From: Lytechinus pictus
Taxonomy: Eukaryota
Length of the DNA stretch: 64,000 bases
NCBI RefSeq assembly: GCF_037042905.1
Contig: NC_087249.1
Span: forward strand, 49,104,001 to 49,168,000
Direction of reading: 5' to 3'
Every line of letters starts with the position of its first letter. Within the stretch, counting starts at the first letter, position 1. This document shows, piece by piece, positions 24,701 to 57,700 of the stretch. Position numbers: made by a program.

Positions 24701-27700
24701 GGTGAAAATCATTTACCATAAGAAAGGATCACCAGTCATTCTTGAAGTCGCTCTTAACTTACGAACGACTTTATGAAACACCCACCAGGTGATTGAAAAC
24801 CGCAATAAATTCTTCTGCTACTTTCCTAAACCTTTTTTTTCCCTCTGTAGGTACAACTTTGTTTACAACCTTAACCCAACACTCGTCTCCTATACTAAAT
24901 GTAGCAAAGTTGGTGATGTCCACACCACTGGGCTGTTAAAAGATTGGAACTCAAAATTTAGATATAACTCTAAAATCAGAACACCTGATTTTAGAGTTAT
25001 GACATAAGTAGCAATTACCTTTTGCCTATATAGAGTTTTCTAAAGGAATTAGGAGACTCTCCTCAGACAATATAAGGTTGCCACCAGAGTATATTTCTGA
25101 AATGCAGCTTTTTCTGAGCCGCCCTTAAAATGTTTAAATTTTTGAGATAAAATGTTTTAACAGCGCAACAAAGCTACATGCATGTAAATGAATATGGTAG
25201 CACACAACATTCTACATGATTTAAAAAAAAAAGTGTTGTTTGAATAATTTGGTGTGCACGTGTGCTGGGAACTACTTGAATCTACACATCAGTCAAATGA
25301 AAAATGCTAAATATCAGTCAGTCTCCGTTGTGATGATGTGAAAATAAATCTTTCTGCAACCACTAAAAAGTGGAAAGTCAGCAAAGTGCTACCAAATCTG
25401 CAAGCTTGCTATTCTGTCCAAGTACATCAAAGAATATTGTCCATCAAATTATCTAACATTTTTTCAGTTTTCATCTCACGATACTAGTAGATGTAGATGC
25501 CTTGTGGCATTCGTTTTACAGTAGTATCATCACCGCATGGCAAAAATTATCCAGCTGATGAAAAGGCGAGTTTTAACCTAAACATCAACAAGAATTGTTT
25601 GACACCGGCTACTGGCTACCTTGTCTGGTCCAGAGAAGTAAATGACAAGCAATGCATGAGAACATTGTCTGAATGGAACCGTCACATGGTGTGAAATCAC
25701 CAGGCGTTGCGTACAATGTTTGGAAATGGGGAGAGGTGACAGATCCAAGATTGAAGGGGGCCAACTAACTTTTAAAACAGTTTTCTATTGTCTTTATCAA
25801 CAACTTTCACATTTTGTTGATAGGACCTCCTCCCCCAACTGGATCTGCTACCAATAGACTGTTATGTAGGCATGAGAAGATTTGGGGAGATTAGCAGGGC
25901 CCTTAATGCAGGAGTGTCAAGCACACCAGGAAACATTATTGCTCCAAGTCTGGCCTTCTAGCAAAGAGGGAAAAGGACATTTGAAGAGTGAAGGCAGTCT
26001 TGTACGCCAAGGCTAGGTCTCCCTGCAGATCAGAGGAAAAGGGACATTTAATGTGTGAAGATATTGTTGCACAGATAGTCTCAATCTTCCTGCGAAGGGA
26101 TAAAGGAATATCTGATGAGCGAAGGAAGTGTTGCATGGATAGTCCATGTCTTCAAGCAGATTAGGGGAAGGGACATTTGATGAACAAAGGCAGTCTGGCT
26201 CGGAACTCCATCTGCTTTAATTTCATATAATCAGTTTCTCCTTGAGTTGTTTGTTCTTGACCACCGTGCCATGCTGCTTGCAGAAGAGACGATCGTCCGC
26301 GATATCCAGGTTCCACAGGGTCAAGGTCCTGCTGCACTCGCTGCACTTCTGGCACGTCCGGTGGAAGACCCGACCTTCGAACTTGCTCATCTCGTTGGGG
26401 TAGGCGGACTTCTCGCACACCATGCAACAGTCGATCATGGGCTGGAGGGGCGGCCGCGAGGACGACGAGGGATTAGTGGACAGTCTGGAGGGTCCCGTTG
26501 TGGGTGCCGTTGACCCTTTGAGTTTGTTGGAACTTGTTGATGAGGGCTTTGACGGAACCTATACAACAGAGAGAGTAGGAAAAATCAATAGATAATCAGT
26601 ATTTTACCTAAAATAAAATGAAATTACATTATCACCATAACTACCAAGTAACATTTCATACAAAAATAATGATAAAAATAACAACAGAGCCAATTACAAA
26701 ATAAATACAGAAGGTTTGAACAAGAAAGAGAAATTGATAATGAAAGATTTATTTCATACTTAAATAACAGATCATCTTAGATTACTGGAAGAAGTTTGGT
26801 TACTGCTTAATGTACCCACACAATATTAATTGGAAGATAACAATAGCATTATTGTAATAACAGCAATAATTTTGCACCTAAGAATAGATAATGTTTAGAT
26901 ACAGATTGCCATAAAAAATTTCATTATCAATATTTAGATCATTATTATTACCAGCAACTGAAATCATTTCACAAAAACCTAACCTTGAACCCCCCCCCAT
27001 ATCCTCCTGCCCAGTGCCTCAAAGGGCTAAAACCTCTCAATATTCCATAGTTCAGTTAATCTATCTCACATAATGCAAACAAGATTATCAAAATTACACA
27101 TTCCATTAACAAAACATGCCTTCACATGCTCAAACATGCCTACCACACTCCATTAGTGAAAATTTGGAAAGGAACTACTTAATGATGTTGTCATGGTTAA
27201 TTTCAGACTACATCAATAAGGAAACAAAGTATGACAGGTGCCTTATTCAATTTTCATTTAGGGGGATGCAGATACAATTCTAAACAATCTAATGCCTACT
27301 AGGACTGACTAGTCCTTGTACTAAACCGCTGGCAATCAAATAGACGGATTACTCAGTGGGTTAAACACTTTGCCATCCAGATCAGATATCATTACATTGC
27401 ATCACAATATTGATACTGTAAATGGACAAACATACATGATGGTATATGACTCTAAAGCATCATTTATTTTCTGTTCCTGTTTCATCAGAAGAAAAGGTAT
27501 ATTATATGCTGTGTTAATAAGTTGTTCCATTTCCTCTTTTCAGTTAGTTTTAGTGTAGCAGCTGTTCTTTGCATGCCATGAATAGAATGGATCACAACTT
27601 CCCATCGCTATTCAACTAATTAAAGATAATTATCAGAAGCCTTATTTGGTAAGCTTTTAATATTAAACATACTAATTACTATCATCATTATTTTTCTTCA

Positions 27701-54700: not shown

Positions 54701-57700
54701 ACAGTTATATGGACAAAACAGTTATATGGCTGGTATGCAAATGAGGAGACTATGACGTCATCCACTCGCTATTGCTTTTGTATTTCATTATATGACATAT
54801 GAAATATTCTAATTTTCTCCTCATTGTCAAGTGATACAATAATTAATTCCTCCCTGAACATGTGGAATTAGCATTGTTTAATACTATATGGTTCAGTCAA
54901 GTTGGTCCTTATTGTCAAATCTATAAAAATTAAATATTGTATAATTCAAACAATAAAAAACAAAAGAAATAGTGAGTGATGGACATCATCGACTGACTCA
55001 CCTAGTTGTGCATATCACTGTTTTGTGAAAAATAAGCGAAACTTTAAGATGTCATAACTTTCTGATTTTACATCCGATTTTGATGATATTTTCAGCACTA
55101 TATGCTAGTTTGATTTTTCTCTATTTATTCAAGTCAGCACTTTCCTGGGGTGGACTTGACCTTTAAAACTATGCATCGCCTCAAAGTTAAAATCATATTC
55201 CACAGGCAAATATTGATGTTTCTATTTTCCAAAAATAGTTACTATGGCAATGAGATAAACCATCAATAAAGATGAGTTTATATAATGGTTCACCCGACAA
55301 ATTTTCATTTATTACCAACGTGAAGGAATATTGTGTAATGTGAGCTCACTCTACTTGCAGCTTTGTACTTGGGGGGAGGGGGGGTCCTGTTAAGTGTGAG
55401 AATGAATAGCCTGATTTTCCAGTTTCTTCTTAACCATGTATATTCCTAAACACAAACTCTACCCTTCTGAGATGATATGTAACATAACTATTTGCCTTTG
55501 AAGTCAGAGGGAGTTGGGATCAACATGCTTAAGGTGCAATAAATTGAAACTTGGCAGAAAACAAATAAGAAAATCTATTCAATTATTTACATGTAGTTTG
55601 TAAATAACATCTTTTGTTCTTATTCCAGTTGGAAGATGGCCAATATAGATTAACATGAAAGATGCATCCGTCTAAACCAAGAGAGGCCAAGACAATGGCA
55701 AGGTGACCCAATTTGATTTCATCATCTTTTTCATTTCAAATTATTTGTAAAAGCTCCTTTAAGTATTTTCCTTTGTAAAGGAAATATTTTGTTTGGTTGT
55801 ACCCCTTTTTCATCCCATGAATTTAATCAAGGATTAAAGTAACAATTGTACTGAGTAGCGAGTCCCAGTGAAACTTGGCTACTCTTCAATCCCTTAAGTG
55901 CAGCATAACTCTAATCATTTATGTTCAAGGTGTCTATCAACATCGGGACTGGTGAATTGATAGACACTAGACCTAAAATGAGATGCATAAGGACAGCTTG
56001 AAGACACTTAATTTAGATCAGGATCCCCAAATTTGCATAGGTACACCAAATTCATCACCTGCACTCTCGGCACCTACATGTCAATATTTGGGACAGCTCT
56101 CACAAATAGTGTGATTGTTTGCATCAACCTCAATTATGGAAAGCTGATGGCAACATAATCATTTGTCTACTAGCATATGCACTTATCATATTGTAAAGTA
56201 GAAACATCATGTTGATGTACCAAAACAATGGCAATAAAAAATGTAATTTTATATTCCGAGGAGCTGATTTGAAATTTGGAAATTGAGGACAGCTTTGAAA
56301 AAGCTGTATTTTAGAAATATGACAATGTTGGCAACCTCATATGCCCACTGTTGAGTCCATGGTTTATGTAGAATTCCTGTATAAATTACACTTATTTTAC
56401 CGTGTATATAAAAAAATGTCCAAATGCTGGTGCACGCTTTTGTCACAGTGCGCCAAATTGACGTGGTTATCCACGCTATTTTATTCATGAGTCCTGTTTT
56501 GAATTAATGAGTCCACTCTTCAAACAGTGGACTCATGAATAAAATAGCGCAGCTAACCATGGTAACAGGCGTCAATTTGGCGCACAGTGACAAAAGCGTG
56601 CATCAGCATTGCACATTTTTATTTACACACGCGCCTGATACGCACTAAATTAAGCGTATTTATACAGGATTTGCATAAACCATGGATTCAACCGTGGGTT
56701 TTCAAAACCACCTTTGTCAATTCGGGCCATATTGTCTGAAGACAGTCTCCTAATCCCTGTGGAGAAATCTTCCAAGGCAAAAGAAGGCTACCACTTATGC
56801 CAAAGCTAAAAAGTCGTTTTTTTTTTCTTTCTGAGCTATCCACAAATTTTGAGATTGTCATTGTGAAATTCATTGTCATTCTAGATGATGATGTCACTGG
56901 TTTTCCATATACGAAATTGAAATTGATCTAATCCTTCACACTCCTACTTAGGGTGGGGCCGTGATGTTTAATAATAAAACAAATAATGCAGCTTACCTGT
57001 TTTTAATCTCTTCATGTCGGCTGTGACATTTTGGCTCTCCTTGACGCCGATGCTCGTAAAGCTCTTCTGTAGCGAGGAATGAATATGGGTTACAGGCATG
57101 AGAACTACCTAACTTTTCCCAAACAGAGAAAACTAAAGAACTTTTCCGACATGGAAGATTCGGACAAGAAAGAGAGGGAGGGTTTTCCTATGATCTCTCT
57201 ATCCTAACAGACTAATTCTACAAATTTCATTCCCGTAAATAAAAACTACCCCCTAAACCCACCTTCGTCCCAACCTACACCCTAAATTAGACTCCTAATA
57301 GGTTATCTAAGAATAGAGGCCGCCACCGCTTTGCGTAGTTGAGGAGAGAGGGAGAGAGAGAGAGGAGAGATGAGTTGATAATTGCTCCTAGCTTCGCCCA
57401 AACAAGATGATGCAGTTTCAAAGAAGCAGACGGAAGTACGAATTTGGACGTTATTCCAAGCATGGAAGAACCGTTGAATATCAACAAGGCATATGTAGAG
57501 CAAATGAAGTTAGGAAGAAGTCCAAAGACAGAGATAACGGAAGATCTGATGCTATGAAAATCCACAGGTTAAATCACTCAGAAATAATAAATGGAATTAT
57601 TCCAACAAGAATCCATTCCAGGATGATGATCTTCACAGTGTACGGTAACAGACTGATGGTGTCACAAGTAAAGTTTCCAAAATAGATGCAGCAGCGTGAA

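What the first reader, a model, noticed from the sequence alone, without database searches (positions are those of the whole stretch)
26223..57099. Unusual domain architecture: CRACD/DUF4592-like motif + acidic IDR + repeated helical motifs + C-terminal LIM
The assembled ~890-905-aa protein joins an N-terminal motif resembling that of CRACD/KIAA1211 capping-protein inhibitors with an EPLIN/MICAL-class LIM domain. As far as I recall, vertebrate CRACD-family proteins lack LIM domains. Inference: an uncharacterised actin scaffold coupling capping-protein regulation, filament binding and LIM-mediated localisation.
Basis: partly seen in the sequence, partly recalled or inferred. Interest (0 to 1): 0.65.

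Follow-up and report, generated by a model that had tools for sequence, protein, structure and literature searches.

The report
Disordered LIM-domain gene with CRACD-like motif
A six-exon animal gene appears to encode a mostly unstructured protein ending in one EPLIN-type LIM zinc finger and starting with a short motif weakly like that of CRACD proteins, but nothing here shows it regulates actin capping protein.

Summary
The gene is real. Six minus-strand exons (57099..26223) are GC-rich islands with GT/AG borders and matching phases, giving 888 codons. Exon 6 holds a complete LIM domain (Pfam E=5.2e-9). Its best single-domain PDB match is EPLIN, then LIMD2. Exon 2 matches DUF4592, the CRACD-family domain, only weakly: E=9.6e-5, 23.3 bits, below the cut-off of 27, covering the last 34 of 124 profile positions. 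None of 408 other ORFs matched it. Exons 3-4 are strongly acidic and mostly low-confidence coil. The "repeated helical motifs" are a few short predicted helices, not repeats above shuffles. No exon has a capping-protein-interaction motif, strict or relaxed. The protein ends 15 residues after the LIM domain, so the 22-residue EPLIN motif that defines that class cannot fit. The architecture is therefore there at motif level, and the capping-protein inference is unsupported. I do not take the contig for human.

The parts
56997..57099 (-). Exon 1 (103 nt) with the proposed start codon at 57099..57097. This is the least certain exon.
   Evidence: ATG is the 4th codon after an in-frame stop. The donor is CAG|GTAAGC. 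It leaves 1 nt, which completes a codon with the first 2 nt of E2. GC is 0.451. No Pfam hit for its ORF (protein 83). An in-frame acceptor at 57066 (15 of 20 pyrimidines) means the true start could lie further upstream.
53323..53456 (-). Exon 2 (134 nt): a basic peptide (net +7) carrying the CRACD/DUF4592-like motif.
   Evidence: Acceptor ...tttcaaag|AT, donor CAG|GTAAAT. Charge.
53344..53442 (-). The 33-residue stretch that matches the C-terminal end of Pfam DUF4592 (profile positions 91-124 of 124).
   Evidence: E=9.6e-5, 23.3 bits, curated cut-off 27. 0 of 408 other ORFs in the window match DUF4592. No CPI motif. No PDB hit at E<=10.
45240..46425 (-). Exon 3 (1186 nt, 395 whole codons): acidic, Ser/Thr/Pro-rich region, presumed disordered (it was not folded).
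   Evidence: Strong acceptor (18 of 20 pyrimidines), donor AAG|GTAAAA. Net charge -46, GC 0.512. No Pfam family at E<=1. PDB hits only at E>=0.15. The 469-aa ORF exceeds 50 of 50 shuffles.
38131..38899 (-). Exon 4 (769 nt, 255 whole codons): acidic region with short predicted helices.
   Evidence: Acceptor with 17 of 20 pyrimidines, donor GAG|GTGAGG. Net charge -30. Single-sequence AlphaFold2 model: mean pLDDT 56, helices at residues 22-34, 141-159, 201-220, 227-241 and 250-254. No Pfam family at E<=1. PDB hits only at E>=0.67.
38421..38477 (-). Predicted helix at E4 residues 141-159. It contains RLSVAAS, a look-alike of the E2 core RISVAPS.
   Evidence: block pLDDT 72-77. One search found the motif; 45 of 200 shuffles reach the similarity, so it is not significant.
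35692..35830 (-). Exon 5 (139 nt): basic Ser/Pro-rich linker. Its first residues continue the short helix that ends E4.
   Evidence: Acceptor ...ccaatag|G with a weak pyrimidine tract, donor AAG|GTGAAA. A split codon (2 nt + 1 nt) closes the E4/E5 junction. Net charge +7. No Pfam or PDB hit.
26223..26558 (-). Exon 6 (333 nt plus TGA): Ser/Pro-rich lead-in, the LIM domain and a 15-residue tail.
   Evidence: Acceptor ...ctgttgtatag|GT with an in-frame stop directly upstream, so it has to be spliced to an upstream exon unless translation starts at the Met just before the LIM domain. GC 0.562.
26271..26426 (-). LIM zinc-finger domain: C-x2-C-x17-H-x2-C-x2-C-x2-C-x17-C-x2-H.
   Evidence: Pfam PF00412, E=5.2e-9. 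Regex signature. PDB matches: EPLIN 2d8y, LIMD2 2lzu, CRP1 1b8t, MICAL 2co8. The Atlas returned LIM-only clusters, best score 0.91.
26047..26052 (-). ATTAAA, a poly(A)-signal-like hexamer 170 nt after the stop codon.
   Evidence: It is a consensus match only.

Best explanation
One minus-strand, six-exon gene of a non-human, AT-rich animal genome encodes a protein of about 888 residues that is mostly disordered.

Layout:
- a short basic N-terminal part with a 33-residue motif like the last quarter of the CRACD-family domain DUF4592;
- about 650 strongly acidic residues with a few short helices;
- a basic Ser/Pro-rich linker;
- one complete LIM zinc finger of the EPLIN/LIMD2 type at the very C-terminus.

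Shown here: the exon structure, the LIM domain and its nearest relatives, the charge layout, and the weak motif match.

Inferred: it most likely acts as a cytoskeletal adaptor, as EPLIN-like single-LIM proteins do. The LIM domain would be the docking or self-association module. The short helices and basic stretches in the disordered part would make the contacts with actin filaments or their regulators. The acidic centre would act as a spacer or a regulated, possibly auto-inhibitory, segment.

I do not think the evidence supports CPI-type inhibition of capping protein.
For: Gene model: GT/AG at all 5 introns, all 5 junctions in phase, no in-frame stops. Every exon is a GC island. The long ORFs exceed 50 of 50 shuffles.

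No competing gene: the intronic and upstream minus-strand ORFs give no credible Pfam domain. In one search, 0 of 150 have any family at E<=0.01. In one search, 15 of 148 have a family at E<=0.1, all below their cut-offs, best E=0.0066.

LIM: above Pfam's gathering score. The best single-domain PDB hit is EPLIN at 38.8 bits, about 20 of 62 aligned positions identical by my count, with the final His ligand aligned. LIMD2 is next at 30.0 bits, level with MLP.

Motif: DUF4592 at E=9.6e-5 is the only family reported for the E2 ORF at E<=1, and it is absent from 408 other ORFs. The similarly basic, Ser/Pro-rich E5 and E6 ORFs gave no DUF4592 hit at E<=1.

Actin context: EPLIN-class proteins bundle and stabilise actin and link cadherin-catenin complexes to the cytoskeleton (Koch et al. 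2012, PMC3305314, passages read). CRACD binds CAPZA/CAPZB (PMC9949038 and PMC13631292, passages read).
Against: - No transcript evidence. E1 is weakly supported. The 9.1-kb E5-E6 intron could hide another arrangement, and read-through at the E5 donor would stop after 27 codons.
- The DUF4592 match is below the curated cut-off and covers 34 of 124 profile positions.
- The defining EPLIN motif is absent.
- No actin-binding module was identified by any search. E1, E3, E4 and E5 have no Pfam family and no meaningful PDB hit.
- The E4 fold is single-sequence and low-confidence. The LIM exon model was poor, with mean pLDDT 45.6.
- No homologue from any other animal could be examined, so conservation of the architecture is unknown.
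Confidence: 0.6

Rival explanations
1. The DUF4592 resemblance is a short basic linear motif that arose independently, or is a chance match. The gene would then simply be a lineage-specific single-LIM protein with a long disordered N-terminal part and no relation to CRACD.
For: The score is 23.3 bits, below the cut-off of 27, and only the last 34 of 124 profile positions match. The first 90 positions are found in no upstream ORF (0 of 148). Exon 2 has no usable Atlas hit and no PDB hit. The motif is basic and Ser/Ala-rich, which makes it prone to convergence.
Against: 0 of 408 control ORFs hit it. The composition-like E5 and E6 ORFs do not hit it at E<=1. The motif also sits near the N-terminus of an acidic disordered protein, which as I recall is also the CRACD layout (not tested).
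Confidence: 0.25
2. There are two transcription units. E1-E5 would make a LIM-less acidic protein, ending for instance by read-through at the E5 donor. The LIM exon would belong to a separate small gene, or would use exons hidden in the 9.1-kb interval.
For: Read-through after the E5 donor gives 27 more codons and then a stop. The E5 acceptor has a weak pyrimidine tract. A Met lies just before the LIM domain in E6. There are no RNA data.
Against: E6 opens at a strong acceptor directly after an in-frame stop, and about 40 Ser/Pro-rich in-frame codons precede that Met. The E5 donor and E6 acceptor are both phase 0. 0 of 150 ORFs of 32 aa or more on the minus strand between E6 and 47.4 kb (introns and other frames) have a Pfam family at E<=0.01. 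The GC islands in the E5-E6 interval are weak, at 0.46.
Confidence: 0.12
3. This is a true CRACD-family orthologue that keeps an ancestral LIM domain and inhibits capping protein through the exon 2 motif.
For: The DUF4592 hit. CRACD binds CAPZA/CAPZB, and a mutant lacking its capping-protein-interacting motifs fails to rescue F-actin (PMC13631292, passages read). The overall layout is a basic N-terminal motif followed by a long acidic region.
Against: No strict or relaxed CPI motif in any of the 6 exon peptides. Only an H-x5-P remnant is left in E2, and the basic residues beside that Pro, which the consensus requires, are missing. No PDB hit for E2 at E<=10. I could not establish where CRACD's CPI motifs lie relative to DUF4592, because Jung et al. 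2018 is not held.
Confidence: 0.12

Closest known systems
EPLIN / LIMA1 and LIMD2 (EPLIN class of Koch et al. 2012)
   Same: The LIM domain is nearest to these by sequence: EPLIN 2d8y at 37.6-38.8 bits and LIMD2 2lzu at 29-30 bits. It has the same C-x2-H final ligand pair as EPLIN. It is a single LIM domain preceded by a Ser/Pro-rich disordered region.
   Different: The 22-residue EPLIN motif that defines the class, directly after the LIM domain, cannot be present because only 15 residues follow the last zinc ligand. The alignment to EPLIN stops 2 residues after that ligand. The LIM domain here is terminal. As I recall, in EPLIN it is central and flanked by actin-binding regions.
CRACD (KIAA1211/CRAD) and CRACDL, the DUF4592 family
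   Same: There is a 33-residue N-terminal motif matching the end of DUF4592. A long acidic region follows it, which as I recall is also true of CRACD.
   Different: The match is below Pfam's gathering score and the first 90 profile positions are absent. There is no CPI motif. That was not tested here.
ZNF185 and the LMO7 class (LMO7, LIMCH1, Drosophila Lmo7)
   Same: Same architecture idea: an N-terminal actin-targeting part and a LIM domain near the C-terminus with no CH or PDZ domain. Koch et al. describe Znf185 and the Drosophila Lmo7 this way (passages read).
   Different: The LIM domain here ranks with EPLIN and CRP types. No chain named LMO7, LIMCH1 or ZNF185 is among the 39 PDB matches at E<=10. 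Whether such chains exist in the PDB at all was not established.
CPI-motif regulators of capping protein (CARMIL, CD2AP, CKIP-1, twinfilin and others)
   Same: These also carry a short linear motif in a disordered region that could in principle dock on capping protein.
   Different: The consensus LxHxTxxRPK(6X)P (PMC4598739) is not met. Only the His and one Pro are in register.

Membership tests
LIM domain (Pfam PF00412) | Profile score above the curated gathering score | tested here: met
   36.7 bits against 22.9, E=5.2e-9.
LIM domain (Pfam PF00412) | Eight zinc ligands with the double-finger spacing | tested here: met
   C-x2-C-x17-H-x2-C-x2-C-x2-C-x17-C-x2-H at 26271-26426. It is the only such signature in six frames of the window.
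LIM domain (Pfam PF00412) | LIM fold in a structure model | tested here: inconclusive
   The single-sequence AlphaFold2 model has mean pLDDT 45.6. No fold search was run on it.
EPLIN class (Koch et al. 2012) | LIM domain closest to EPLIN, LIMD2 and XIRP2 LIM domains | tested here: met
   The best single-domain PDB matches are EPLIN and LIMD2. No tree was built.
EPLIN class (Koch et al. 2012) | Conserved 22-residue EPLIN motif adjacent to the C-terminus of the LIM domain | tested here: not met
   Only 15 residues follow the last ligand before TGA. The EPLIN alignment ends 2 residues after that ligand. A short core pattern that I recalled for the motif occurs nowhere in six frames. The motif itself is in Table S2 of PMC3305314, a supplement I could not open.
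CRACD family / DUF4592 (PF15262) | Profile score above the gathering score over the domain | tested here: not met
   23.3 bits against 27, profile positions 91-124 of 124 only. No further piece was found in 148 upstream and intronic ORFs.
CRACD family / DUF4592 (PF15262) | Capping-protein-interacting (CPI) motif | tested here: not met
   No strict or relaxed match in the 6 exon peptides. The consensus is from PMC4598739.
CRACD family / DUF4592 (PF15262) | Binding to and inhibition of CapZ alpha/beta | not testable with these tools
This needs a bench assay.
MICAL class | CH domain and C-terminal DUF3585 beside the LIM domain (Koch et al.) | tested here: not met
   Neither family appears in any of the 414 ORFs scanned. 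Plus-strand ORFs inside the gene were not scanned.
CRP class | CRP-type LIM domains with glycine-rich motifs, usually two or more (Koch et al.) | tested here: not met
   There is one LIM signature only. The tail after it has a single Gly. The CRP1 total score comes from one query domain matching two CRP1 domains, at 25.3 and 28.7 bits.
LMO7 class | LMO7-type LIM domain at the C-terminus, with or without CH and PDZ | tested here: inconclusive
   The position of the LIM domain fits. No CH or PDZ domain was found. No LMO7-class LIM chain was among the PDB matches to compare with.

The most novel reading that the evidence does not exclude
The CRACD signature motif and an EPLIN-type LIM domain belong to one ancestral actin scaffold that survives in this invertebrate lineage. 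Vertebrate CRACD/CRACDL would then be LIM-less descendants, or EPLIN-like proteins motif-less descendants. The exon 2 motif would be a divergent, non-canonical handle for capping protein that the LIM domain positions at particular actin structures.
Probability: 0.12. Interest if true: 0.6.

Novelty: new variant of a known kind. Interest (0 to 1): 0.3.

Why it matters
If the one-transcript model and the motif homology hold, this gene links two actin-regulator families that are treated separately: CRACD-type capping-protein inhibitors and EPLIN-type LIM scaffolds. It would also give a simple system for asking what the conserved end of DUF4592 does. I found no description of that function: 'DUF4592' occurs in 0 papers of the library, and the 5 listed of 6 papers holding both 'KIAA1211' and 'LIM domain' are, by title and abstract, unrelated to protein architecture. 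If the motif match is convergent, this is an ordinary lineage-specific LIM protein with a long disordered region.

Tried and rejected
- Atlas look-alikes: exon 6 gave LIM-only clusters (best 0.91, none carrying DUF4592). Exon 2 gave no usable hit. This says nothing either way about the architecture elsewhere.
- PDB sequence searches: E2 and E5 gave 0 hits at E<=10. E3 and E4 gave only E>=0.15 hits (arginase, HU, Nup98), which I treat as noise.
- Missed exons: Pfam scans of 148 + 150 minus-strand ORFs, and GC-island mapping, found none. Exons under 30 aa would have escaped.
- Internal repeats: not above shuffles.
- LIM exon fold: too poor to use.
- Complex prediction: not used. CapZ cannot be supplied, and I claim no binding.
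- RNA and repeats: Rfam 0 matches, tRNA 0. Tandem repeats lie outside the exons.
- Jung et al. 2018, the paper that defined CRAD's capping-protein binding, is not held. No held paper combines 'CRACD' with 'CPI motif', or 'CRAD', 'CPI motif', 'capping protein' and 'CARMIL'.
The architecture search across animals therefore stayed unchecked.
- The supplements of PMC3305314 (Tables S1 and S2, with the EPLIN motif and the invertebrate members) could not be seen.

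
Full report
WHAT THE WINDOW IS. The window has 34.9% G+C over its called bases, CpG observed/expected of 0.56, and four N runs between 10890 and 12654. I left the N runs alone. Nothing suggests a human contig. I treat it as an AT-rich animal genome and did not try to identify the source.

GENE MODEL.
- All coding signal for the finding is on the minus strand.
- Stop-to-stop ORFs of 469 aa (45088-46497) and 267 aa (38127-38930) stand out. Both exceed the longest ORF in 50 of 50 block-shuffles of the window, whose maximum was 245 aa.
- Reading the borders gives six exons: E1 57099..56997, E2 53456..53323, E3 46425..45240, E4 38899..38131, E5 35830..35692, E6 26558..26226, followed by TGA.
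- Every intron is GT..AG.
- The exon lengths (103, 134, 1186, 769, 139 and 333 nt) keep the frame across all five junctions with no in-frame stop, for 2664 nt or 888 codons.
- Each exon is a G+C island at 0.45-0.56.
- The last residues of E4 (38133-38153) and the first of E5 (35815-35829) form one short helix-like motif across a split codon. The E4 model predicts a helix running into the exon end. I count this as mild support for that junction.
- Weak points: E1 has no homology and could instead be an internal exon, because an in-frame acceptor lies at 57066. The E5 acceptor has a poor pyrimidine tract. Read-through at the E5 donor would end the protein after 27 more codons.
- There is no transcript evidence.

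DOMAINS, SEARCHED EXON BY EXON.
- Pfam on the six exon ORFs gave hits for 2 of 6.
- LIM in E6: E=5.2e-9, 36.7 bits, cut-off 22.9.
- DUF4592 in E2: E=9.6e-5, 23.3 bits, cut-off 27, profile positions 91-124 of 124.
- E1, E3, E4 and E5 gave nothing at E<=1.

BACKGROUND FOR THE DUF4592 HIT. I scanned three sets of other ORFs:
- 148 minus-strand ORFs of 30 aa or more from 47.5 to 63.8 kb. 15 of 148 had some family at E<=0.1, all below their cut-offs, and the best was E=0.0066.
- 110 ORFs of 55 aa or more in the flanks. 3 of 110 had a family at E<=0.01, and one of these was real (see neighbours below).
- 150 minus-strand ORFs of 32 aa or more from 26.6 to 47.4 kb. 0 of 150 had a hit.
None of these 408 matched DUF4592. 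Plus-strand ORFs inside the gene were not scanned. The motif-level similarity is therefore better than this background. It is still below Pfam's own threshold, covers about a quarter of the domain, and the other three quarters were not found.

THE LIM DOMAIN.
- The eight zinc ligands are complete, and this is the only LIM signature in six frames of the window.
- Against PDB sequences, the best single-domain match is EPLIN (2d8y, 38.8 bits, final His ligand aligned). LIMD2 follows at 29-30 bits, level with muscle LIM protein, then the CRP proteins, then MICAL at 24.6-24.9.
- The higher total for CRP1 comes from two CRP1 domains each matching the single query domain, at 25.3 and 28.7 bits.
- Koch et al. 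2012 (PMC3305314, passages read) define the EPLIN class by the LIM domain plus a conserved 22-residue EPLIN motif directly after it.
- Here the protein stops 15 residues after the last ligand, and the EPLIN alignment ends two residues after it. The LIM domain is therefore EPLIN-like, but the class-defining motif is not met.
- The CH and DUF3585 domains of MICAL, the second LIM and glycine-rich motifs of CRP, and the CH and PDZ domains of LMO7 were not found.
- The LIM exon model was too poor to use (pLDDT 45.6), so no fold search was run.

THE MIDDLE OF THE PROTEIN.
- E3 has 91 acidic and 45 basic residues of 395, and E4 has 70 and 40 of 255. E2, E5 and E6 are each net +7 to +8.
- The layout is therefore basic ends around an acidic centre.
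- The single-sequence model of E4 is mostly low-confidence coil (mean pLDDT 56). It has helices at 22-34, 141-159, 201-220, 227-241 and 250-254.
0 of 15 exon pairs align above shuffles at z>2. The best within-exon matches are reached by 57 of 60 (E3) and 8 of 60 (E4) shuffles. The one suggestive pair, RISVAPS in E2 and RLSVAAS in E4, is reached by 45 of 200 shuffles.

CAPPING PROTEIN.
- The CRACD papers I could read in passages say CRACD binds and inhibits CAPZA/CAPZB. A mutant lacking its capping-protein-interacting motifs fails to restore F-actin.
- The CPI motif is given as LxHxTxxRPK(6X)P in PMC4598739.
- None of the six exon peptides matches it, strictly or in relaxed form. E2 keeps only a His and a Pro in register and lacks the basic residues beside that Pro, which the consensus requires.
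- E2 finds no PDB chain at E<=10.
- The paper that mapped CRAD's binding (Jung et al. 2018) is not held. I could not learn whether CRACD's CPI motifs lie in the part of DUF4592 that matches here.
- A CapZ complex prediction was not possible with the sequences allowed.

WHAT IT MOST LIKELY IS. A lineage-specific, EPLIN-like single-LIM adaptor of the actin cytoskeleton with a CRACD-like N-terminal motif (confidence about 0.6).
- Rival 1: the motif is convergent or a chance match (0.25).
- Rival 2: two transcription units (0.12).
- Rival 3: a true CRACD orthologue that inhibits capping protein (0.12).
The actin role is inferred from the nearest LIM relatives and from the DUF4592 family, not shown.

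WHAT STAYED UNCHECKED.
- No homologue from another animal could be retrieved. The remaining collections hold only prokaryote, phage and plasmid DNA. The two Atlas calls gave LIM-only clusters and no usable hit.
- Whether DUF4592 plus LIM is common among invertebrates, and whether vertebrate CRACD truly lacks LIM, therefore rests on recollection.
- In the literature library, 'DUF4592' occurs in 0 papers. 'KIAA1211' together with 'LIM domain' occurs in 6 papers, of which 5 were listed, none about protein architecture by title and abstract. 'CRACD', 'capping protein' and 'LIM domain' together occur in 2 papers, with 1 listed and unrelated.
- The supplements of Koch et al., which hold the motif and the invertebrate members, were closed.

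NEIGHBOURS.
- The only solid neighbour is the last exon of a GRXCR1/2-like gene at 2306-2536 (+), E=1.8e-13. It is convergent with this gene and about 23.7 kb from its stop codon.
- Rfam and tRNA scans were empty.

VERDICT. It is an unusual but modest variant of a known kind of protein. Interest is about 0.3 until transcript and comparative data exist.

Noticed in passing
window 2306-2539 (+): Terminal exon of a GRXCR1/2-like gene. Pfam GRXCR1-2_C, E=1.8e-13, profile positions 1-46 of 47, followed by a stop codon. It is convergent with the LIM gene, about 23.7 kb from that gene's stop. As I recall, human GRXCR1, LIMCH1 and CRACD all lie on chromosome 4. That is a synteny lead from memory and was not tested.
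   Followed up: partly
window 35608-35691 (-): If the E5 donor is not used, the frame runs on for 27 codons to a stop. That would give a possible LIM-less isoform.
   Followed up: partly
window 57066 (-): An in-frame acceptor with 15 of 20 pyrimidines lies inside E1. E1 may be an internal exon, with the real start upstream. No Pfam domain was found in the 6.9 kb upstream.
   Followed up: partly
window 26226-26234 (-): The protein ends in three hydrophobic residues (Leu-Ile-Ile). This could be a PDZ-ligand-like C-terminus, which is speculation only.
   Followed up: no
window 15756-16764; 13973-14229; 27940-28340: Tandem repeats: a 208-nt unit x4.9 with 97% matches, 80/89-nt units x2-3, and a 163-nt unit x2.5. 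The last lies inside the E5-E6 intron.
   Followed up: no
window 10890-12654: Four N runs. Trinucleotide arrays lie among and beside them: (ATG)n at 11456-11524 and (ACT)n at 12656-12754. I left them as they are.
   Followed up: no
window 62075-62365 (-) and 58409-58504 (-): Sub-threshold Pfam hits: Nipped-B_C (E=0.008) and SYCP2_SLD (E=0.0066). Among 148 ORFs these are at the level expected by chance.
   Followed up: no
window 45377-46068 (+): Two antisense ORFs of 223 and 217 aa lie opposite exon 3. They are most likely a by-product of the stop-poor, GC-rich acidic exon and not a gene. They were not scanned against Pfam.
   Followed up: no
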